A stretch of 64,000 nucleotides of DNA from a virus (lineage: Duplodnaviria; Heunggongvirae; Uroviricota; Caudoviricetes): the IMG/VR virus record IMGVR_UViG_3300017987_005500. One strand, given 5' to 3'. The translations under genes were made by a program, and so were the position numbers. Below, piece after piece: positions 46,583 through 54,951 of the stretch. Position 1 is the first letter of the stretch. Every line of letters starts with the position of its first letter. The notes under the pieces were generated by a model. That model did not search any database. It saw only the letters and a list, made by a program, of their open reading frames with translations, and had not been told where the DNA came from.

Positions 46583-46930
46583 ATGCTTTCATCAAAAATT
46601 ATCCCTTTAAGTAAAGTTATAATAGACACAACATCAGGAGAGATCTTAATAAAGTCAGACGACACTACTATTACAATTAAAGGAGTCGATTTTGAAAATG
46701 AAGTATCTAAATTTTCAAGAATTGATATTGATAGTGGTAAAGCTATTATTACTGAAACAGAGACTCGTAAATCTCCAGACTTATCTTTATTTATGGTAAA
46801 TATGTATAACATGATTTACGATGAAACACAACAAAATCCGAAATTATCAAAACATTCGGATTTATTATTCAATAATTTACTTAACCGAATGAGACAGGAA
46901 GTTAAAAAATATGGGAAAACTCTTAGATGA
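46583..46930 (+). CDS. Hypothetical protein
   Basis: Coupled ORF. Confidence 0.45.
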   Translation: MLSSKIIPLSKVIIDTTSGEILIKSDDTTITIKGVDFENEVSKFSRIDIDSGKAIITETETRKSPDLSLFMVNMYNMIYDETQQNPKLSKHSDLLFNNLLNRMRQEVKKYGKTLR

Positions 46931-47276
46931 AATTATTGGCGAACTTAAAGGAAAAGATATTGATCAACAAGTTAAAGAAATTTGTGACGAAATAACTGAA
47001 CAAGAAAAGGATTCAATTGAAAATGAAGAATTTCTTCCTGTAGGACCTAATATATTCTTAGCTCTTAGTTGCCCAGGAAGAATTAAAGGTGAAGTTGGAT
47101 TTCTGACTTTAGAAAGAGAACTTGTTGATGAGTATTTAGTTGGGTTTTGGGCAATAACACCTAAAATTCCAAATGATAAATTAAAACGATATAGAACATG
47201 GAGTGTAAAGGAAGTCAATTGTAAGCGAATTATTAGAGCATTCGCTGAGAGACTAAAGTACGTTAGAGGAGAGTAA
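46911..47276 (+). CDS. Hypothetical protein
   Basis: Coupled ORF directly upstream of the E2 gene. Confidence 0.5.
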   Translation: MGKLLDEIIGELKGKDIDQQVKEICDEITEQEKDSIENEEFLPVGPNIFLALSCPGRIKGEVGFLTLERELVDEYLVGFWAITPKIPNDKLKRYRTWSVKEVNCKRIIRAFAERLKYVRGE

Positions 47277-47281
47277 AGGTT

Positions 47282-50200
47282 ATGTCTAGTGAACATATAC
47301 GAGTTGGATTGAAAAATCCAACTGACAAAAATGAAATTGTTATTAATAGACATCATATAAGTGTTGTTAAATCTTCGACTTATTTTAACAATCGTTATAG
47401 AGACGATAAAAAATTAGATAAATGTGCAGTTGAGAGAATTGCGACTTACAATTCACGCACAAAAATTAATAATCTCCTAAGTGTAAATGACTCTGCATCT
47501 GGAGAGATCTTGCCAGCAAATTGTAGATATTTTCATAAAACAGCTAATGGCAGCACCATTCTTGTTATGGAAGAAGCTCCAAGTATAAGAACAATTAAAG
47601 TAAAATTGGATTTACTTTCTGAAGCTGTTGAACTTCAGAAAGTAGGTAAGTTAGAAAAATATGGTTATGTTGAATTCTTAGAGCAAAGTCCACCAGGACC
47701 ATATGAAATAGCTCTATCTTTTCCTTATCTGGTTTATGTAATTGATATTAATAAAGATAAAGGAGTTGAAAAATTCAATGTATATTTTAGAGTTCATCCA
47801 TTAACATCATTAGATGATTATTTGATCAGACCGTTTCTGACGAATATGGATAACTCTGAAGTATGTACAGGTAATATAAAGCTACCAAAGACAAAAGGGC
47901 GACGAACTCTCATTGATATTACTGAGACTTATATTACTGCATGGTGGGAATATGAATTTAATACAGATTTATCTGAAAATTATAATAAGTATGCAGAGAA
48001 GGGACCACCTGAATTACAGGGATATTTAAGTTGGGCATATTTCACACAATACGATCCAATGTTTATATTTTCAATTGACTGGTTAATGTATGATTATAAA
48101 TTAAGCAGTGTAATTGAAAATAAATTAGTGAATCGTGGTCAATCTTCAGGAGAATATACATTTGAGGATCTAATGAAAATGTTGACCACAACATCAAGTG
48201 GACTTCCAACACATGACCGATATACTGATAATATTATAGTTAAAGATAAAATCTTATCAGTTGGTGATGATGTAATTATAGATGATGAGTTGTTATATGT
48301 ATTAGCAATTGATTTGAATAATGCATCTGGTGAAGTAAGTGCTATATTATTTGAGGATGAAAAAGATAATGAGATTGTTAAGAAATATAACGATGAATTG
48401 AGCGAAAAGATATATGCTCATATTAATAATATCTCAGATACTTTTAATCATGGAGGTCATGAATTTAAAGTTAATGATGTTGTCGAAGTTGATATACATA
48501 ACCATGACAGCTCAATGGTTCCTCAATATAGAATATTTAAAGGGTTTCGTAAAACAAGAGATGGGATTGTTGAAGTTAGACTTGGCAAAGCTTATCATAT
48601 TGAGGAATCAATAAATATAAGACCTATTGATATGGATAAACTTACAATTGATGGGGTTAAACCTCAAAAAGATGTTAAGTATTTACTTAAACGATGCGGT
48701 TCATCTGGTTTTCAATTTACCAAGACATTTGTTGCTGAGTTTACTGAGATTAAAGTTTTGAGTTCTGGAAAAATAGCATCTATATTTAGATATACAGATG
48801 AATATGGAGATCGTCAGAAAATTAGTCTTGATATGGTTGGAACTCCATCTTACAATGTATTAGACTTGCCCAATTATTCAACTCCTGAAGTATTTATTGT
48901 TGGACGAAGATTATATACACAAAACTTAAGAGAACCATGGGCATTCTTTACAAACGATAAAAGAGATCCTATTTATTACAATAGGAAAATTCAATCCCAT
49001 AACACAAAGGAACTTATTGAATATATAACCACACAGAAAGATAGACTCTACATCCCAGGTATTCATGAGAATATAGACTTTAAAGTTGGGGATGACATTA
49101 TTGTAGCTAACTGGGAAAACCCATATGAAATGACTATTATTCAAACTATCATTAGATTTGAATATAAAAATGACAGATTTACTGGAGATTTTCATGCAAA
49201 TGTAGTATGTAAAGATCATCAAGGTATTGAAAGATGGTATACAATTGTAGAGATATCCTTAACTGGACCAAAAGTAAATGTAGGACTTATAAGGAAAGCT
49301 TATAGGACATATGATGGAATTGTTGCCGGATCTAAGATCAGAGCGAAAGTTCCAAGACTTGGAATGTTCCCAAAGAAAGATGTAAATAAGATTGTTGCTT
49401 TTATCGAAACTGGAGCAACTCCATTAATGATTTGTAGCAATTTATGTACCTTATGGGCAAATCAAGAAACATATGAAAAGTTTGACATTTTCCCACCGAC
49501 TCATCCAAAGTATTATGGAATGAAAATAGCTCCATATGACACGAAGAAGATTAAACGACAATTTGGAGATTATATCTATCACAAAGAAGATGATAGATTG
49601 TATTACAATGTCATGGAAAATAATCAATATTTGAGAGCTGTTCGAGTAGATCCTTCTTTTAGTGCAAATGATGAACTTTATAAAGGATCTGAGTTGGAAA
49701 ACAAATTAGTATATTATGGTTTTCAACTTCCAAGAATCACTCCGACTGTAAGACAGACTCTTAATTACGAAGCACAATTTCAAACTATTTATGGACCACA
49801 TATTGAAACAACGACAAGTATTGTTCCAACTTCAAGAATGATTCCAATGCCTTATGTAAATACGGAAAGGAATTTTGAATTAGAACTTGAAAGAACTGAA
49901 AATGAGATCATTCAAGTAACTCAACCAACTCCACCAACTCAAGATATTGATGAGGTTGAGGATGAGGATTTTCCTGAAGAAGAATCTGAAAAGACTATGA
50001 ATGATATTGAACAGGTTGCTAGTGGAGCTTCTTCTCCGCCAGCTCCTGCAGGAAGATTTGATAGACTTAGAGAAAGACCTCAAATGACATGGACTAATAC
50101 AGCAACATCTTCAGATTATTATAGAGAATATAATCAAGAGATTATGTTCAGACGATTACATGAACCTCAGGCATTTAGATCTTTTGACAATCCAGAGCAA

Positions 50201-50566
50201 ACCGATGAGGAAATAGAGCAAGCTCAAGCATTACAAGAAGAAGCTCCAGAACAATCTGCTGAAGAAGCTGCTGATGAGATCTGGGAAGAAATGGAGGAAA
50301 GAGGGGAAGTTCAAGCAATACCTGCTCCAGACCGAGAAAATGCAGAAGACATAAATGAAAATCCTGACCGAGAGGAAATGGAAGAAAATGCTGCTGAAGA
50401 AACGACTAATGAAATGGCACAAGATGTATTTGAAGAAACAATAGTTAATGAAGATCCAGACATTGACCATGTTCAACAAGTTGTTGAAAATGACATTCAA
50501 ATATCTATTGAGGATGCCCAACAAGCAATGCATGATGAAATGAGAATGAGAAATTTAGAATCATAA
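47282..50566 (+). CDS. Giant protein with N-terminal prokaryotic E2 (Prok-E2_D/PRTRC protein B-like) domain and acidic disordered tail
   Basis: LP..CR, EEAP..RT, LSFPYLVY, PL.SLDD.L..P.LTN....VCTG (Cys195), WW..FN.DL; sits next to JAB, E1 and Ubl genes. Confidence 0.72.
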   Translation: MSSEHIRVGLKNPTDKNEIVINRHHISVVKSSTYFNNRYRDDKKLDKCAVERIATYNSRTKINNLLSVNDSASGEILPANCRYFHKTANGSTILVMEEAPSIRTIKVKLDLLSEAVELQKVGKLEKYGYVEFLEQSPPGPYEIALSFPYLVYVIDINKDKGVEKFNVYFRVHPLTSLDDYLIRPFLTNMDNSEVCTGNIKLPKTKGRRTLIDITETYITAWWEYEFNTDLSENYNKYAEKGPPELQGYLSWAYFTQYDPMFIFSIDWLMYDYKLSSVIENKLVNRGQSSGEYTFEDLMKMLTTTSSGLPTHDRYTDNIIVKDKILSVGDDVIIDDELLYVLAIDLNNASGEVSAILFEDEKDNEIVKKYNDELSEKIYAHINNISDTFNHGGHEFKVNDVVEVDIHNHDSSMVPQYRIFKGFRKTRDGIVEVRLGKAYHIEESINIRPIDMDKLTIDGVKPQKDVKYLLKRCGSSGFQFTKTFVAEFTEIKVLSSGKIASIFRYTDEYGDRQKISLDMVGTPSYNVLDLPNYSTPEVFIVGRRLYTQNLREPWAFFTNDKRDPIYYNRKIQSHNTKELIEYITTQKDRLYIPGIHENIDFKVGDDIIVANWENPYEMTIIQTIIRFEYKNDRFTGDFHANVVCKDHQGIERWYTIVEISLTGPKVNVGLIRKAYRTYDGIVAGSKIRAKVPRLGMFPKKDVNKIVAFIETGATPLMICSNLCTLWANQETYEKFDIFPPTHPKYYGMKIAPYDTKKIKRQFGDYIYHKEDDRLYYNVMENNQYLRAVRVDPSFSANDELYKGSELENKLVYYGFQLPRITPTVRQTLNYEAQFQTIYGPHIETTTSIVPTSRMIPMPYVNTERNFELELERTENEIIQVTQPTPPTQDIDEVEDEDFPEEESEKTMNDIEQVASGASSPPAPAGRFDRLRERPQMTWTNTATSSDYYREYNQEIMFRRLHEPQAFRSFDNPEQTDEEIEQAQALQEEAPEQSAEEAADEIWEEMEERGEVQAIPAPDRENAEDINENPDREEMEENAAEETTNEMAQDVFEETIVNEDPDIDHVQQVVENDIQISIEDAQQAMHDEMRMRNLES

Positions 50567-50578
50567 GGAGAAAATTAA

Positions 50579-51646
50579 ATGTTTCCAGTATATGTTAATG
50601 ACGGAACCCAAGAAGTACCTGATGCAGATATATTTTACATAATTGGTAAAGATGGAATTTACTTAAGGAAAAAACTTGGAAGACTTGATGCAATTGTCCC
50701 GGTTGATAAAATCTCAACACTTGGAGATGTTGAGACAATGGCGACATATGACTTACCTCCAATTCCTGCATTGCATTTTGCTAAAGTTGTCTCATTCTTT
50801 AAAGTAATATATGAGATGCATAAGAGTGAGGCAATTGTATTGGTACATTTTGATGAGGAAAATGAAAAGTTTAAACTTCAATGTCCACATCAAAAAGTTA
50901 CAAGAGCGGGACTTGATTATATAAGAACTGTAACATTTCCTGGATATACAAAAGTATGTACTATTCATAGTCATTCGGATATGAGTGCTTTTCATTCAGG
51001 AACCGACGATAAAGATGAAGAAGACACAGATGGACTTCATATCACGGTAGGTCATTTAGACTGGGATGATGGAATGTTTGATTTATCAGTTTCTGTAGTC
51101 ATCAATGGAAAAAGATTTATGGTTGAAGCGAGTGATTATATTGAGGGTCTTACACAAGTTGAAGTTGAAGAAACGAAACCTCATTATATAAGCACCTGGT
51201 TTAATTCATATTTAAATGATGATTCAGATCCTGACGTTAAATCGGGTTATAAAATGGGTCTTCCTGATTCAAAAATGACATTCAATAAAAAATGGTTAGA
51301 CTATGTGACCGTTGAGTCTGTAAGACGTGGTTATTATATGGGCAGTGTTCATTATGGAGGTGGTGGACATAGAGTCCATAGTGTTGGAAGTCCTCATTAC
51401 AAAAATAACCAAAAGATAATCGAACATCATTTTGGTGCTGACAACAACGATGAAGATACACATGATTTCAATCCCTGTTTGAATTGTGTATTTTCTGAAC
51501 ATAAACTTCTTCAAGAAGTTGAAGATGAAGATATTGACCCTAATGATGTTGAGGGTTATGACATTGTTGGTGGAGATGAACACAATCACAGACCAATCAC
51601 ACATGAAAATCAATTATTAGACGGAGGTGATGAGCATGGAAATTAA
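50579..51646 (+). CDS. JAB/JAMM metalloprotease (deubiquitinase-like, PRTRC protein A-like)
   Basis: Catalytic E (HKSEA) plus exact HxH-x7-S-x2-D (HSHSDMSAFHSGTD), then DE..G.H...G. Confidence 0.9.
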   Translation: MFPVYVNDGTQEVPDADIFYIIGKDGIYLRKKLGRLDAIVPVDKISTLGDVETMATYDLPPIPALHFAKVVSFFKVIYEMHKSEAIVLVHFDEENEKFKLQCPHQKVTRAGLDYIRTVTFPGYTKVCTIHSHSDMSAFHSGTDDKDEEDTDGLHITVGHLDWDDGMFDLSVSVVINGKRFMVEASDYIEGLTQVEVEETKPHYISTWFNSYLNDDSDPDVKSGYKMGLPDSKMTFNKKWLDYVTVESVRRGYYMGSVHYGGGGHRVHSVGSPHYKNNQKIIEHHFGADNNDEDTHDFNPCLNCVFSEHKLLQEVEDEDIDPNDVEGYDIVGGDEHNHRPITHENQLLDGGDEHGN

Positions 51647-52328
51647 GAATATTAAGATAATTGGTCTTGGTGGAATTGGTTCAATTCTTACTGACAAAAT
51701 TTGCAGATTTATGTCATTTGGTAAATTTGCAAATGATGACTGGACAATCACTTTAATTGATGGTGATGACTACGAACCCAAAAACAGGGAAAGACAAGAT
51801 TTTATATACTTAAAGAACAAAGCATTATCCAAACAAGAAGAGCTTAATGCCAAGTATGGTGTCAATACAGTTCAATATGTTGTTGAGTCTTATATTGATC
51901 AAGACAATGTAAAACAATATATTGGATCAGGCGATTTAGTCTTTATGTGTGTGGATAATCACCAATCCCGTAAATTGATATCCGACCATGCGGGAACGTT
52001 AGACGACGTTATAATTGTTTCTGGAGGAAATGACTACATTGATGGAAATGTGCAAGTATACGGAAGAGAAAATGGAAAAGACATTTCCCCATCATTAACA
52101 TCTTTTCATCCTGAAATAGACAGTCCTGATGATAAACACCCAAGCGATATGTCATGTGAAGAATTGGCAGACTCAGTTCCTCAATTATACTTTGCCAATT
52201 TGACTGCGGCAACAGTTATGTGCTGGGTTTTATATGCTTTGATTCAGGAAAAATTTAACTTTGGAAAACCTGAAGTTTATTTTGACATCGAGATGATGTC
52301 AATTGTAGGCAAGATGAGAGCTGTTTAA
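51627..52328 (+). CDS. ThiF/E1-like activating enzyme
   Basis: IIGLGGIGS, DGD.YE.KN.ERQ, K, CVDN..SR, SGGN; candidate catalytic Cys177 (MSCEE) followed by PQL..AN. Confidence 0.9.
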   Translation: MMSMEIKNIKIIGLGGIGSILTDKICRFMSFGKFANDDWTITLIDGDDYEPKNRERQDFIYLKNKALSKQEELNAKYGVNTVQYVVESYIDQDNVKQYIGSGDLVFMCVDNHQSRKLISDHAGTLDDVIIVSGGNDYIDGNVQVYGRENGKDISPSLTSFHPEIDSPDDKHPSDMSCEELADSVPQLYFANLTAATVMCWVLYALIQEKFNFGKPEVYFDIEMMSIVGKMRAV

Positions 52329-52349
52329 CGAAAAACTATTTAACGAAAA
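52324..52349 (+). repeat. TTTAACGAAAA direct repeat (2 copies) in the Ubl leader
   Basis: Copies at 52324-52334 and 52339-52349. Confidence 0.55.
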
Positions 52350-52360
52350 GGATTAAGAAA

Positions 52361-52888
52361 ATGGCATCAAAGTACACAAAAGAGAAACTGTCCAAACTTA
52401 ACAATGTTGAACTCCGAGAAATTTGCAAGAAAAAGAAAATTCCTGGAATGTCAAAGAAACGTAAAGATGTTATGGTTGACGCAATACTTCTTGCTCATGG
52501 CGGAACGAAAGCAAATGCCAAATCTTCCAAGAAAGCTAAGACTCTCGGAATTGGAAAAGATGGCGAACCAACTAAAAATGCTTCCGAAGCAAAGAAAGAT
52601 GACAAACTTCAAGCTGCAACATTTACTCTTAGCAGTGTTTTGACAAAACCATCTGCAAAATATGGTGATCGAACAACCACGACAATTCGCGTATCATCCG
52701 GCGCAGCTGCAGGCGACTTCCCTGTAACAGGAAGAACAGTATCTTCTGTTAAATCATTCCTCTCTGAAGTTCTCAATATTTCCAAAATGTCTTCTCCAAT
52801 CGTCAATGGAAAACAGGTTGAAGATAATTATGTAATCAAACAAGGTGATGAACTTGAGTTCTTGAAACCAGCAGGTCAGAAAGGGTAA
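52361..52888 (+). CDS. Ubiquitin-like (beta-grasp) protein with N-terminal HeH/Rho-N/SAP-like domain and C-terminal Gly
   Basis: aa 5-45 L.KL...ELREICKK..IPG.SK.RK..MVDAIL; aa 105-175 G.TV..V..L...LNI..VNG..V...Y.IKQGDELEF.K.AGQKG. Confidence 0.82.
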   Translation: MASKYTKEKLSKLNNVELREICKKKKIPGMSKKRKDVMVDAILLAHGGTKANAKSSKKAKTLGIGKDGEPTKNASEAKKDDKLQAATFTLSSVLTKPSAKYGDRTTTTIRVSSGAAAGDFPVTGRTVSSVKSFLSEVLNISKMSSPIVNGKQVEDNYVIKQGDELEFLKPAGQKG

Positions 52889-52908: not shown

Positions 52909-52928
52909 CTATATATATAATTATATGA
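52909..52928 (+). promoter_or_regulatory. Putative promoter, motif class A, copy 4
   Basis: CTATATATATAATTATATGA (last two bases run into the hairpin). Confidence 0.5.
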
Positions 52929-52969
52929 GAAGGGGAATTTTTGTAATATAAAATTTCCCTCTCATATAA
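52921..52969 (+). terminator. Long imperfect inverted repeat after the Ubl gene
   Basis: TTATATGAGAAGGGGAATTTT...AAAATTTCCCTCTCATATAA, about 20-bp stem with one bulge and one G-U pair. Confidence 0.6.
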
Positions 52970-52992: not shown

Positions 52993-53397
52993 ATGACCGT
53001 TAAAATCACAAAAGATTGTGGAGATGGAAAATTTATAGCAGAGAATGAAAAAGGACAATCATTTAAAATCTTTACAGTTGATAGAGCTAAAATTCAAAAA
53101 AGTCATGACGACAGAGTTGCACAAGTTGCACAAGCAATAAATAAAGACGACATAGAAAGATTATTTTTAACAACTTTAGAATATTCAACTAAACCAATTG
53201 ATATAGATCATTGGAGAAAACTTGCTGAGGATTTAACTGTTTTCTTGAAAAGGTTATATACTCAAATTGGAAATCCTAATATTTTTCATCATTACATTAA
53301 AAATATTGATCCAGATTATTATGGTAAAGCTGATACATTTAGGAAGGAATGCAAATCTTTACATAAGATATGTATAGAGATTAAAAATAAACCTTGA
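52993..53397 (+). CDS. Hypothetical protein
   Basis: ORF with aggag RBS. Confidence 0.5.
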   Translation: MTVKITKDCGDGKFIAENEKGQSFKIFTVDRAKIQKSHDDRVAQVAQAINKDDIERLFLTTLEYSTKPIDIDHWRKLAEDLTVFLKRLYTQIGNPNIFHHYIKNIDPDYYGKADTFRKECKSLHKICIEIKNKP

Positions 53398-53457: not shown

Positions 53458-53703
53458 TTGGCATATTCTGAGAAGGATGACAAACTTATAAAGTTATTTG
53501 AATTTGGAGATGAGGATGCAGCACTACATTTTTCTATATTCTCATATGATGGAGGACCCAGGAAAATCCAAATGACAAGAATGTTTAAGAAGAAAGACAA
53601 CACACAAGGTTATGGTAAAGCAGGAAGAATGACTATCGAGGAAATGAAATATTTAAGAGATAATTTAGATGAAATCATTTCCGTAATGGAAGGAGAAAAT
53701 TGA
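53458..53703 (+). CDS. PC4/YdbC-like ssDNA-binding transcriptional coactivator-like protein
   Basis: SYDGGPRKIQM.R...GK.GRMT.EEM..L; TTG start with aggtggtg RBS. Confidence 0.7.
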   Translation: MAYSEKDDKLIKLFEFGDEDAALHFSIFSYDGGPRKIQMTRMFKKKDNTQGYGKAGRMTIEEMKYLRDNLDEIISVMEGEN

Positions 53704-53734: not shown

Positions 53735-54607
53735 ATGCGTATTTGCGTTATTGGGTTGGGCACAATAGGTGGATTCTTTTCACAATTTATTTCTGACTTT
53801 AGAGATGTGACTCATTTGACTATTATAGATTATGATAAAGTTGAAAAGAAAAATCTAAAAAATACTGTTTTCAAGAGAAAACATATTGGGATGTTAAAGA
53901 TTGACGCAGTTGAAGAAATTATCAAAGAAACAAATGAAAAAATTACCCTATCGAAGTATGACATAGAGTTTAATGAAGACAAATTTGATTTAACGCCATA
54001 TGATTATGTGGTTGATTGTAGGGACTTCACTTACAATCGAAGAAAAGTTAACATAAGACTTTATTTTTCAGGAAGACAATTAATTGTAGATTGCAGAAAG
54101 AAAGCGACCTACGAAACTCCAATGGAAGGTTATTATACAACAAAGCTTACAAAAACAGATGTTATTGGAGCTGTTAATGCTGTTGCATTATTATTTAACA
54201 AAAAGATTGTGAATAAATTTATAGACGAAGAGATAGTATATCGTTATGAACTTGATGGATCGAATATCGAAGCATGTGAATATATTGATCAAAGATCAAA
54301 AACTCCTGATATATTATATGAGTCCTGTGATGCGGAGACAAATAAAGGAGAAGACTCTCTAATTAATTTACATGAGAATCTCCAACCAATTTTGGATATG
54401 AATACAAAATCTGCTACGACATTATTCGTTGGACCAAAAGACTTTCCAACTATGGAAAAAGAATTTCCGGCTGGAACATTAACATCGTTTTCAGATGTTA
54501 TAAAATCCCTTGTGAATGCTATTAATTTACCATTTGCATATAATTACTATGTAGTATCTTCAGGGAAAAATGTTATTGAGTTGATTCCTGATACAGGAGC
54601 TGCTTAG
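53735..54607 (+). CDS. Second ThiF/E1-like enzyme with probable C-terminal beta-grasp (Ubl-like) domain
   Basis: VIGLGTIG, IDYDKVE.KNL, G..K, VVDC.D; C-terminus ends VIELIPDTGAA. Confidence 0.78.
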   Translation: MRICVIGLGTIGGFFSQFISDFRDVTHLTIIDYDKVEKKNLKNTVFKRKHIGMLKIDAVEEIIKETNEKITLSKYDIEFNEDKFDLTPYDYVVDCRDFTYNRRKVNIRLYFSGRQLIVDCRKKATYETPMEGYYTTKLTKTDVIGAVNAVALLFNKKIVNKFIDEEIVYRYELDGSNIEACEYIDQRSKTPDILYESCDAETNKGEDSLINLHENLQPILDMNTKSATTLFVGPKDFPTMEKEFPAGTLTSFSDVIKSLVNAINLPFAYNYYVVSSGKNVIELIPDTGAA

Positions 54608-54609
54608 AA

Positions 54610-54951
54610 ATGTTAAAAGAAAATTATTTGGTTAAGAGAAAGATAGTACCCAAAAGGGTATTTTACAGAGGTAGAGAGACAGAAATAGAGGAAATTGATG
54701 ACCATTTAATTATAGAGAAATATAGAGTTGTATTAATAGACGACAAAATTATGAAAATACTTTTAGTTGATTGTCGTCATCCGAATGCTGACCCGTATAC
54801 CGGAGAATATTGCCTACCATACACTCTAAAAGGACTTAAGTTTACAAAAGAGAATCTTAAAAAGATAGACAAATCTCTTGAATTATATAACCTCTTAAAT
54901 TGTTACGAAATTCCATATGGACATTTCAAAGTTGTTGGAGGAAGATTATGA
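54610..54951 (+). CDS. Minimal E2/UBC-like protein
   Basis: HPNADPYTGEYCLP matches the UBC HPN-x7/8-C-L active-site signature (Cys68); starts 2 nt after the E1-like gene. Confidence 0.68.
   Translation: MLKENYLVKRKIVPKRVFYRGRETEIEEIDDHLIIEKYRVVLIDDKIMKILLVDCRHPNADPYTGEYCLPYTLKGLKFTKENLKKIDKSLELYNLLNCYEIPYGHFKVVGGRL

What the first reader, a model, noticed from the sequence alone, without database searches (positions are those of the whole stretch)
52361..52888. The Ubl carries its own nucleic-acid-binding domain: a conjugatable DNA/RNA tether
Seen: a basic N-terminal helix-extension-helix pattern (L.KL...EL+EI.KK..I.G.SK..K...+D.IL, Rho-N/HeH/SAP-like), a Lys/Ala-rich linker, then the beta-grasp with a free C-terminal Gly. 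Inference: conjugation would graft a nucleic-acid-binding module onto the target and relocalise it to phage DNA or RNA. That would be a modifier with a built-in effector function rather than a plain tag. A TTTAACGAAAA direct repeat in its leader and a long hairpin after it suggest separately tuned expression.
Basis: partly seen in the sequence, partly recalled or inferred. Interest (0 to 1): 0.85.

Follow-up and report, generated by a model that had tools for sequence, protein, structure and literature searches.

The report
Phage ubiquitin-like protein with Rho-N domain
A clade of uncultured huge phages encodes a small ubiquitin-like modifier whose N-terminus is a Rho-N/SAP-type helix-extension-helix module; the fusion is real and conserved, so the modifier may carry a nucleic-acid-binding function of its own, but no binding or conjugation has been tested.

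Summary
ORF 52361-52888 (+, 175 aa) has three parts: a basic three-helix HeH domain (aa 5-47), a disordered linker (aa 48-83), and a ThiS/MoaD-type beta-grasp ending in a free ...AGQKG.

The HeH domain's best structural match among 48,161 PDB chains is the Rho N-terminal bundle (Z 6.7). Rho_N is hit by 38 of 48 relatives.

The fusion is conserved. In a family of 1,603 representative clusters, 156 of the 162 closest sampled members carry one or two HeH domains. More distant relatives are stand-alone or poly-Ubl forms.

The gene is the last in a tight cassette: giant Cys-protein, JAMM/JAB, ThiF-type E1, then the Ubl. The cassette is syntenic in four other phage contigs and always lies just upstream of a second ThiF, a small UBC-like ORF and the RNAP beta'/beta genes.

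The C-terminal xKG is free in 72% of members. Most others carry a 1-2 residue cap, usually Cys, which fits JAB processing and C-terminal activation.

The post-stop hairpin is real and positionally conserved. The leader repeat is real but not conserved, and the basic linker is not a family trait.

Nucleic-acid binding, protein conjugation and target relocalisation remain inferences. I found no description of this architecture in the searched literature. I rate it a new variant of a known kind, interest 0.6.

The parts
52361..52888 (+). HeH-Ubl gene (175 aa plus stop)
   Evidence: ORF. There are 98 near-full-length homologues and 1,603 representative clusters at E<=1e-3.
52373..52501 (+). HeH / Rho_N-type three-helix domain (aa 5-47), net charge +8 over aa 1-47
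   Evidence: Pfam Rho_N E 2.9e-4 and 38 of 48 relatives. AF2 helices. VIA top hit is Rho 1a62_A, Z 6.7. PDB profile hit to Rho 3l0o, E 8.8e-4. Charge.
52502..52609 (+). Disordered low-complexity linker (aa 48-83); Lys/Ala-rich here but variable in the family
   Evidence: pLDDT below 50 for aa 48-77. Composition. Family statistics.
52610..52885 (+). ThiS/MoaD-type beta-grasp (aa 84-175, core 104-175) ending ...EFLKPAGQKG
   Evidence: AF2 topology. ThiS and TGS hits. ESM Atlas ThiS cluster TM 0.80 by the hit. MoaD Z 4.3. Invariant A171, G172, K174 and G175.
52324..52349 (+). Two exact copies of TTTAACGAAAA, 15 nt apart; the first overlaps the E1 stop codon
   Evidence: Not conserved in orthologous leaders. 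One of 8 such repeat loci in the window, against 1.6 expected.
52921..52969 (+). Long hairpin after the stop codon; terminator-like or mRNA-stabilising
   Evidence: MFE -28.3 kcal/mol, z -4.98. Hairpins at the same position in L001, L004, L005 and L008, with a T-run in L008.
51627..52328 (+). E1a: compact ThiF-family adenylyltransferase (233 aa), immediately upstream
   Evidence: Pfam ThiF E 9.4e-14. PRTRC_ThiF E 1.1e-10, below its cut-off.
50579..51646 (+). JAMM/JAB metallopeptidase (355 aa) with HSHSDMSAFHSGTDD; overlaps the E1a start
   Evidence: Prok-JAB E 5.3e-5. PRTRC_A E 1.7e-11, below its cut-off. Motif read.
47282..50566 (+). 1094-aa protein; its N-terminal region is a candidate E2 (family D-like) with invariant Cys195, and its tail is acidic
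   Evidence: Prok-E2_D E 0.045 here and 0.034 / 0.01 in two orthologues. Cys195 is invariant in 9 sequences. The fold could not be confirmed.
53735..54951 (+). Second module: ThiF-family E1b (290 aa) and a 113-aa ORF with HPNADPYTGEYC; co-conserved downstream
   Evidence: ThiF E 5.3e-15. Synteny. The motif was read and has no Pfam support.

Best explanation
The gene encodes the modifier of a phage-borne ubiquitin-like system. The system resembles the PRTRC / 'type 6d' bacterial cassettes (E2-like, JAB, ThiF-E1, small Ubl).

Shown:
- The protein is a flexible two-domain molecule: a Rho_N-type HeH domain, a disordered linker, and a ThiS-like beta-grasp with a free, invariant ...AGxKG end.
- Both domains are conserved across a large family from phage-like contigs.
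- The gene closes a tightly packed giant-Cys-protein / JAB / E1 operon. That operon is embedded among DNA-transaction genes and lies directly upstream of the RNAP beta'/beta genes.

Inferred mechanism:
1. E1a adenylates Gly175.
2. The JAB peptidase trims capped or poly-Ubl precursors and may reverse conjugates.
3. The activated Ubl passes to a Cys on the giant protein and/or the small UBC-like protein, and then to lysines of target proteins.
4. The basic HeH domain, like the Rho N-terminal helix bundle and SAP domains, gives the modifier weak, sequence-nonspecific affinity for nucleic acid. Conjugation would then happen preferentially on DNA-bound or RNA-bound proteins, the conjugates would gain a nucleic-acid anchor, or both.
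For: Architecture and fold.

Conservation of the fusion:
- N-U in 188 and N-N-U in 21 of 243 sampled proteins.
- 156 of the 162 closest members carry HeH.
- Tandem HeH duplication in 21 members suggests selection for avidity.

Start codon and SD are conserved.

C-terminus: 167 of 232 members end exactly at KG. 29 have a one-residue cap, mostly Cys, and others have short tails or are poly-Ubl. This pattern is typical of peptidase-matured, C-terminally activated Ubls.

Operon partners: ThiF, JAB/PRTRC_A with an intact HxHx7Sx2D motif, and weak but recurrent Prok-E2_D hits with an invariant Cys.

Synteny is conserved in four loci at 47-51% Ubl identity.

A cultured Bacillus jumbo phage has a 4x poly-Prok_Ub ending KAGVKG beside a PRTRC_A JAB and a ThiF. 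So xAGxKG-tailed Ubls travel with this enzyme set in phages.

Genomic context: topoisomerase II, SbcCD-like, helicase, QueD and RNAP genes, with no sulfur-transfer genes seen among the ORFs scanned across 30-61 kb.

HeH precedent:
- The Rho NHB is positively charged and assists RNA binding (PMC11347177).
- The SAP domain of SDE2 binds DNA (PMC9399289).
- In BFVD, viral HeH modules sit on RuvC-like, histone-like and core proteins.

The HeH domain is net +8 here and positive in 37 of 48 relatives.
Against: There is no experimental or direct computational test of nucleic-acid binding.

HeH net charge ranges from -4 to +8 among 48 close relatives (mean +2.8), and from -7 to +9 (mean +2.0) across 188 sampled N-U proteins. 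The linker is not consistently basic.

HeH folds can be protein-binding (LEM). In Rho itself the main RNA site is the adjacent OB fold, not the helix bundle.

The window protein's own Pfam scores are all below the gathering thresholds.

The E2 assignment is weak. The AF2 model of the candidate domain is poor (pLDDT 47) and gave no E2 match.

The Ubl does not match Prok_Ub or PRTRC_C models. hhalign to the Bacillus phage Prok_Ub repeat gives only 15.7% probability.

The tail is KG, not the GG of most characterised Ubls. No targets are known and no cultured host or phage is available.
Confidence: 0.45

Rival explanations
1. Same conjugation system, but the HeH domain is a protein-docking module, as LEM is for BAF. 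It would recruit the modifier to a specific partner: the phage RNAP encoded next door, the giant E2-like protein, the JAB, or a host protein. It would not bind nucleic acid.
For: - The HeH fold matches include the protein-binding LEM domain (7ndy_G Z 4.6, 2odc_I Z 4.1).
- HeH net charge is not uniformly positive in the family.
- The cassette is always adjacent to RNAP beta'/beta.
- The giant protein and the JAB have acidic tails that could engage a basic domain.
Against: - Sequence and structure place the domain closest to Rho_N and SAP, not LEM.
- No partner is identified.
- Tandem HeH duplication (21 members) and proteins with 4-6 HeH repeats hit by the same profile fit avidity for a polymer better than one-to-one docking.
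Confidence: 0.25
2. The beta-grasp is a ThiS/MoaD/TtuB-like sulfur carrier, not a protein modifier. E1a makes a C-terminal thiocarboxylate. The HeH domain delivers it to DNA or RNA for a thio-modification, and the JAB only trims precursors.
For: - The sequence signature is of ThiS/MoaD type.
- The E1 is a compact ThiF-like enzyme.
- ThiS-JAB-E1 triads occur in sulfur pathways (PMC1779556, section 12).
- The phage encodes nucleoside-modification genes nearby: QueD and a radical SAM enzyme.
Against: - No rhodanese, cysteine desulfurase, PP-loop ATPase or synthase partner was seen among the ORFs scanned across 30-61 kb.
- A Cys-bearing E2-like protein and a UBC-like ORF are co-conserved.
- Relatives occur as poly-Ubl precursors, an arrangement typical of conjugated Ubls. 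I am not aware of sulfur carriers arranged this way.
- The tail is KG rather than GG.
Confidence: 0.12
3. The fusion has no special role. The HeH domain is a neutral or solubility-type appendage, or the resemblance to Rho_N is incidental, and the protein behaves as a plain Ubl tag.
For: - This protein's own Pfam scores are sub-threshold.
- Distant relatives work without HeH: stand-alone and poly-Ubl forms.
Against: - The HeH domain is retained in 156 of the 162 closest members and is duplicated in some.
- Mean column identity is 48% with invariant L10, L18, G29 and K35.
- The Rho N-terminus is the top structural hit.
Confidence: 0.08

Closest known systems
PRTRC / 'type 6d' prokaryotic Ubl cassettes (Prok_Ub PF14454, Prok-E2_D, JAB with PRTRC_A, PRTRC_ThiF; Iyer, Burroughs & Aravind 2006, PMC1779556 section 14)
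   Same: The gene set is the same: a small beta-grasp with a conserved C-terminal Gly, a ThiF-type E1 without rhodanese, a separate JAB, and an E2-like Cys protein lacking the classical HPN His. It also sits on a mobile or viral replicon. Its JAB and E1 give their best NCBIfam hits to PRTRC_A and PRTRC_ThiF. A cultured Bacillus jumbo phage carries a poly-Prok_Ub with the same KAGxKG tail next to such enzymes.
   Different: All scores are far below the family cut-offs: 44 against 101.8 bits, and 41 against 144.75 bits. The Ubl does not match Prok_Ub or PRTRC_C. It also carries an N-terminal HeH domain and linker. The E2 candidate is a protein of about 830-1094 aa. A second E1 plus a UBC-like pair and the RNAP genes are co-conserved. 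No ParB was seen.
Bil and Bub bacterial ubiquitination-like systems, whose Ubls have variable N-terminal domains (bioRxiv 10.1101/2024.11.21.623966; PMC11601596)
   Same: Both have E1, E2, a peptidase and a Ubl. The Ubls have one to several beta-grasp domains preceded by extra N-terminal domains of unknown role.
   Different: The reported N-terminal domains are disordered, coiled-coil or DUF1508; the passages read mention no HeH or Rho_N domain. Those systems are bacterial defence or stress operons, whereas this one is encoded by a phage. PADLOC models give no hit for the Ubl or the JAB.
Rho N-terminal helix bundle and SAP/LEM HeH domains
   Same: They share the helix-extended loop-helix fold and the signature ...EL+.IA+.L.I.G.S+M+K..LI.AIL. 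The Rho bundle is positively charged and assists RNA loading (PMC11347177). SAP domains bind DNA (PMC9399289).
   Different: Here the domain is not attached to an OB fold or an ATPase. It is attached to a conjugatable beta-grasp. Its ligand is untested.
Eukaryotic SDE2 (UBL, SDE2 domain, SAP)
   Same: It is a polypeptide that combines a ubiquitin-like domain with an HeH (SAP) DNA-binding domain (PMC9399289).
   Different: The order is reversed. In SDE2 the UBL is N-terminal and is cleaved off at GG, so the SAP domain never travels with a conjugatable C-terminus. SDE2 is not a modifier.
ThiS/MoaD/SAMP/TtuB/Urm1 sulfur carriers and dual-function modifiers
   Same: They share the beta-grasp sequence signature (VNG...GD.LEF..P..G) and activation by a ThiF/MoeB-type E1. 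PDB profile hits to PF1061 and SAMP2 are weak.
   Different: The tail is KG rather than GG. There is an extra N-terminal strand and the HeH domain. No sulfur-transfer partners were seen. Relatives occur as poly-Ubl.

Membership tests
Rho_N / HeH (PF07498) | Profile match at or above the Pfam gathering score | tested here: inconclusive
   The window protein scores 21.2 bits against a 24.9-bit cut-off (E 2.9e-4). At family level 38 of 48 relatives hit at E<=0.01, best 5.8e-10. Precomputed PF07498 hits appear on many homologues.
Rho_N / HeH (PF07498) | Helix-extended loop-helix three-helix fold | tested here: met
   AF2 helices 7-11, 15-24 and 35-45, pLDDT about 85. The best of 48,161 chains is Rho 1a62_A residues 1-48: Z 6.7, rmsd 2.9, 47 aligned. 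SAP and LEM domains follow. This rests on a predicted model only.
Rho_N / HeH (PF07498) | Nucleic-acid binding | not testable with these tools
   Only indirect evidence: net charge +8 here and positive in 37 of 48 relatives.
ThiS/MoaD-type beta-grasp Ubl (PF02597) | Profile match at or above the gathering score | tested here: inconclusive
   15.7 bits against a 22.5-bit cut-off (E 0.023). 16 of 48 relatives hit ThiS (best 3.6e-5) and 17 of 48 hit TGS. PDB profile hits to PF1061 at E 0.12 and SAMP2 at E 0.27.
ThiS/MoaD-type beta-grasp Ubl (PF02597) | Beta-beta-alpha-beta-beta grasp fold | tested here: met
   AF2 topology. ESM Atlas ThiS cluster TM 0.80 by the hit over aa 104-175. MoaD 2q5w_D Z 4.3, 63 aligned, rmsd 4.0. 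The scores are middling and the model is predicted.
ThiS/MoaD-type beta-grasp Ubl (PF02597) | Exposed C-terminal Gly (canonically Gly-Gly) next to an E1-like adenylase gene | tested here: met
   The protein ends ...AGQKG then stop. G175 is invariant and 167 of 232 members end at KG. The ThiF gene is immediately upstream. The penultimate residue is Lys, not Gly.
PRTRC / type 6d Ubl system | Ubl belongs to Prok_Ub (PF14454) / PRTRC_C | tested here: not met
   No Prok_Ub or PRTRC_C hit at E<=1. hhalign to the Bacillus phage Prok_Ub repeat gives probability 15.7%. Only the AGxKG tail is shared.
PRTRC / type 6d Ubl system | JAB = PRTRC_A and E1 = PRTRC_ThiF at equivalog score | tested here: not met
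   These are the best NCBIfam hits but fall far below the cut-offs: 44.0 against 101.8 bits, and 41.3 against 144.75 bits.
PRTRC / type 6d Ubl system | E2 family D protein with a catalytic Cys | tested here: inconclusive
   Prok-E2_D E 0.045, 0.034 and 0.01 in 3 of 5 orthologues. Cys195 is invariant. The AF2 model is poor (pLDDT 47) and no E2 appears among the matches.
Bil / Bub / CBASS-Cap2 defence ubiquitination systems | Match to the PADLOC defence-system models for the Ubl, peptidase and E1/E2 | tested here: not met
   No PADLOC hit for the Ubl, the JAB or the giant protein. Only weak E1-domain hits to CBASS E1-E2 models.

The most novel reading that the evidence does not exclude
A virus-encoded ubiquitin-like modifier that carries its own nucleic-acid-binding HeH domain. 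Conjugation would covalently graft a DNA or RNA anchor onto targets such as the phage's own RNA polymerase or replication factors, or host DNA-bound defence proteins. It would relocalise or immobilise them. This would make it an 'effector-bearing' Ubl rather than a passive tag.
Probability: 0.25. Interest if true: 0.85.

Novelty: new variant of a known kind. Interest (0 to 1): 0.6.

Why it matters
Ubiquitin-like conjugation in bacteria has so far been characterised as host defence (Bil, CBASS Cap2) or as orphan cassettes such as PRTRC and Bub.

Here a whole clade of huge phages keeps such a cassette as a core module beside its RNA polymerase, and its modifier has acquired a Rho-N/SAP-type domain. 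If the HeH domain binds nucleic acid, the modifier would impose a function on its targets, namely a DNA or RNA anchor. That is a mode not described for Ubls in the literature I could search.

It would also give a handle on what phage-encoded Ubl systems do.

One practical point follows from the sequence. The invariant Lys before the terminal Gly means tryptic digests would leave only a +57 Da mono-Gly remnant on target lysines. That mass is isobaric with carbamidomethylation, so standard di-Gly proteomics would miss these conjugates.

Tried and rejected
- tblastn of the Ubl against 50,697 phage records found no match, so no cultured representative is known.
- Foldseek of the whole two-domain model against the PDB gave only weak TrkA_C-type hits with E above 0.02. 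VIA-align and the ESM Atlas were more informative.
- BFVD gave only local HeH matches with E above 0.02 and no full-length viral analogue.
- The AF2 model of the giant protein's N-terminal 340 aa, built from 9 sequences, was poor (pLDDT 47). Its VIA search showed no E2 and nothing above Z 5.6. The E2 question stays open.
- A word-based homologue search for that region found only 5 proteins.
- hhalign of the Ubl domain against the Bacillus phage Prok_Ub repeat was weak (probability 15.7%).
- A six-frame search of the window with the family's HeH HMM found no other HeH protein there.
- The contexts of multi-HeH proteins P0174 and P0239 were uninformative.
- A tree of the beta-grasp core (234 rows, FastTree) gave 20 state changes for 30 HeH-less tips. 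It is too poorly resolved, and too contaminated by truncated or divergent N-termini, to date the fusion.
No whole genome is held for this window.
- Complex prediction was not used. The E1-Ubl pair is a textbook pair, and no specific HeH partner could be nominated.
- The leader repeat was rejected as a regulatory element for lack of conservation.
Full report
**The observation**

Window 52361-52888 (+) is an open 175-aa frame. It lies 32 nt after the stop of a ThiF-family gene. Before its ATG is an AAGGA Shine-Dalgarno-like motif. In four orthologous loci the aligned ATG follows AGGAG, so translation begins at the N-terminal domain and not downstream.

The AF2 model built on 48 homologues shows three parts:
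- three helices (7-11, 15-24, 35-45) at pLDDT about 85;
- a disordered stretch (48-77, pLDDT below 50);
- a beta-beta-alpha-beta-beta domain (strands 88-94 and 105-112, helix 127-138, strands 146-148 and 164-170).

**N-terminal domain**

For the window protein alone, Pfam gives Rho_N at E 2.9e-4 and 21.2 bits, below the 24.9-bit threshold, and SAP at E 0.044. The family-level evidence is solid:
- 38 of 48 relatives hit Rho_N at E<=0.01, best 5.8e-10.
- A profile of the domain retrieves Rho chains from the PDB (3l0o, E 8.8e-4). The alignment covers the whole ...EL+EI.K.L.I.G.SK.RK..II.AIL signature.
- An exhaustive structural comparison with 48,161 PDB representatives ranks the Rho N-terminal bundle first (1a62_A, Z 6.7, rmsd 2.9, 47 residues).
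- That hit is followed by the FAN1, Ku70, Hcc-1 and MKL1 SAP domains and the emerin LEM domain.

The Z values are middling in absolute terms, but the match covers the whole domain and agrees with the sequence evidence. The domain is net +8 here.

**C-terminal domain**

- ThiS scores E 0.023 here. 16 of 48 relatives hit ThiS and 17 of 48 hit TGS.
- The ESM Atlas places aa 104-175 on a ThiS cluster at TM 0.80 by the hit.
- MoaD 2q5w_D gives Z 4.3.
- The PDB profile gives weak hits to PF1061 and SAMP2.

The tail ...EFLKPAGQKG-stop is the most conserved part of the protein. E166, F167, A171, G172, K174 and G175 are invariant in 48 sequences.

**Family and architecture**

A word-indexed search found 98 near-full-length homologues of 97-199 aa. 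An exhaustive HMMER search with the family profile found 1,603 representative clusters at E<=1e-3, of which 77 score at E<=1e-30.

I split the profile into HeH and Ubl HMMs and typed the 243 sequences in hand:
- HeH-Ubl: 188
- HeH-HeH-Ubl: 21
- Ubl only: 20
- poly-Ubl (2-4 copies): 10

Among the 162 members with the best-scoring Ubl domains, 156 carry HeH. The exceptions are mostly truncated calls or proteins with divergent N-termini. True stand-alone and poly-Ubl forms appear only at lower similarity.

The linker behaves differently. Its length runs from 0 to 80 aa, its composition is Ala/Lys/Ser/Pro/Thr-rich, and its mean net charge is 0.0. The Lys/Ala-rich character seen here (net +5) is not a family trait.

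HeH charge also varies, from -4 to +8 in the 48 close relatives, and is positive in 37 of them.

**C-terminal processing**

Of 232 members whose Ubl reaches the end of the model:
- 167 end exactly at KG;
- 29 have one extra residue, nearly always Cys;
- 10 have two extra residues;
- a few have longer tails or are head-to-tail poly-Ubls.

This is the pattern of a modifier whose Gly must be exposed by a peptidase, and it fits the JAB gene in the operon.

**Genomic context**

The gene is the last of four tightly packed, co-directional genes:
- a 1094-aa protein (47282-50566);
- a JAMM/JAB protein with an intact HSHSDMSAFHSGTDD motif (50579-51646), with Prok-JAB at E 5.3e-5 and PRTRC_A at E 1.7e-11;
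- a 233-aa ThiF-type E1 (51627-52328), with ThiF at E 9.4e-14 and PRTRC_ThiF at E 1.1e-10;
- the Ubl.

The giant protein's N-terminal region gives sub-threshold Prok-E2_D hits here and in two of four orthologues (E 0.045, 0.034, 0.01). It has an invariant Cys195. Its AF2 model was poor (pLDDT 47), and the structure search showed no E2. The E2 assignment stays open.

Downstream come two small ORFs, a second ThiF (E1b), a 113-aa ORF with an HPN...C motif, and then RNAP beta' and beta.

This whole arrangement, from a radical-SAM gene and a WYL_2 protein through to beta'/beta, is conserved in contigs of 25-277 kb whose Ubls are 47-51% identical to this one. One of these (L008) has the tandem-HeH form.

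Upstream genes in the window are topoisomerase II subunits, an HNH-QueD fusion, a helicase and SbcCD-like proteins. The cassette therefore sits in the nucleic-acid-transaction part of the genome. No rhodanese, desulfurase or PP-loop gene was seen among the ORFs scanned.

**Relation to known systems**

The enzyme set matches the 'fourth operon type' of Iyer, Burroughs and Aravind: a small Ubl with a C-terminal Gly, a separate JAB, an E1 without rhodanese, and an E2-like protein with Cys but no classical His (PMC1779556, section 14). That type is the PRTRC cassette.

Membership is not met, however. NCBIfam scores are far below the cut-offs, and the Ubl does not match Prok_Ub or PRTRC_C.

There is a useful bridge. 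The cultured Bacillus jumbo phage vB_BauM_KLEB27-3 encodes, three genes upstream of a PRTRC_A-like JAB and a ThiF, a protein annotated as hypothetical:
- It consists of four 57-aa Prok_Ub repeats (PF14454, E 5e-27).
- Each repeat ends KAGVKG.
- It has no HeH domain.

Bil and Bub Ubls are already known to have diverse N-terminal domains: disordered, coiled-coil or DUF1508 (bioRxiv 10.1101/2024.11.21.623966). The passages I read mention no HeH domain.

SDE2 combines a UBL and a SAP domain, but in the opposite order, and its UBL is cleaved off (PMC9399289).

Literature searches for this architecture returned nothing relevant.

**Mechanism**

The steps below are inferences, ordered from better to less well supported:
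1. E1-dependent activation of Gly175, with JAB maturation and reversal.
2. Transfer to protein lysines through a Cys enzyme.
3. Nucleic-acid affinity conferred by the HeH domain.

Support for step 3:
- The Rho helix bundle is positively charged and assists RNA loading (PMC11347177).
- SAP domains bind DNA.
- Viral HeH modules are found on RuvC-like, histone-like and core proteins.
- The domain is duplicated in some members.

Against step 3:
- LEM-type HeH domains bind proteins.
- Charge is not uniformly positive.
- Nothing has been measured.

Whether the HeH domain targets the modifier to DNA-bound substrates or tethers conjugates to DNA cannot be told apart in silico.

The sulfur-carrier reading is less likely. 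The reasons are the co-conserved Cys and UBC-like proteins, the poly-Ubl relatives, and the absence of sulfur-transfer genes among the ORFs scanned.

**Regulatory features**

The TTTAACGAAAA repeat is real: exact copies lie at 52324 and 52339. It is absent from the orthologous leaders. It is one of eight short-range exact repeats in the window, against about 1.6 expected. I assign it no function.

The hairpin after the stop codon is strong (-28.3 kcal/mol, z -4.98). A hairpin of different sequence sits at the same place in all four orthologous loci, with a T-run in one. It is probably a terminator or a 3'-stabiliser that closes the E2-JAB-E1-Ubl transcript. Expression could not be checked.

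**Verdict**

This is a new variant of a known kind of system: a conserved, phage-encoded HeH-Ubl modifier. Its proposed effector role is plausible and testable, but unproven.

Noticed in passing
L003:736-1443 (Bacillus phage vB_BauM_KLEB27-3 gp199, OM634661.1): This protein is annotated as hypothetical. It is a polyubiquitin-like protein of four 57-aa Prok_Ub (PF14454, E 5e-27) repeats, each ending KAGVKG. It lies three genes upstream of a PRTRC_A-like JAB (gp195) and a ThiF (gp194). It is a cultured phage with a related, HeH-less Ubl cassette.
   Followed up: partly
family members listed (for example P0030, P0053, P0061): 29 of 232 family members carry exactly one residue after the terminal KG, nearly always Cys. 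This is a conserved one-residue cap that would need removal before activation.
   Followed up: partly
P0139 and P0181: In these two proteins the Ubl domain is followed by a 67-75 aa Lys/Ala-rich C-terminal extension. They look like Ubl-cargo fusions, analogous to ubiquitin-ribosomal protein fusions.
   Followed up: no
window 53735-54951: This is a second ThiF-family E1 (290 aa) followed by a 113-aa ORF with HPNADPYTGEYC, a near-canonical UBC active-site motif. The pair is co-conserved with the HeH-Ubl in all four orthologous loci. Only one free-Gly Ubl is evident for the two E1-like proteins. The small ORF has no Pfam hit.
   Followed up: partly
window 47282-50566: The 1094-aa protein has 25 invariant N-terminal positions across nine sequences, among them N188, Cys195 and G197. 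It has a roughly 200-aa acidic tail. Its orthologues are 832-962 aa. The fold of the conserved region could not be predicted (pLDDT 47).
   Followed up: partly
L007:2690-3523: A 4x poly-Ubl of the same family sits near a ThiF gene and an RVT_1 reverse transcriptase on a 9-kb metagenomic contig.
   Followed up: no
L009:1-1209: A 73-aa HeH-less Ubl ending PAGQKG sits with a ThiF at the end of a MAG contig. The rest of the contig carries mraZ, rsmH and PBP genes. It could be a cellular copy, a prophage edge or a chimeric contig.
   Followed up: no
window 52993-53397 and 53458-53703: Two small ORFs (134 and 81 aa) lie between the Ubl and E1b. ORFs of 132-161 aa hold the first position in all four orthologous loci. 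An ORF of 82-84 aa holds the second position in two of them (L004, L008). Neither window ORF matched any Pfam, PHROG or NCBIfam family significantly. They are candidate adaptors or targets.
   Followed up: no
window, 8 loci (for example 10363, 24194, 28141, 52324): Exact direct repeats of at least 11 nt, no more than 30 nt apart, occur at 8 loci (13 k-mer hits). A first-order Markov model expects about 1.6 k-mer hits.
   Followed up: no
L001:5423-5785 and L005:4446-4820: A 120-124 aa protein just upstream of the giant gene shows a partial match (first helix) to the family's HeH profile, at E 6.8e-6 and 2.2e-3. The window's counterpart (46911-47276) does not match.
   Followed up: no
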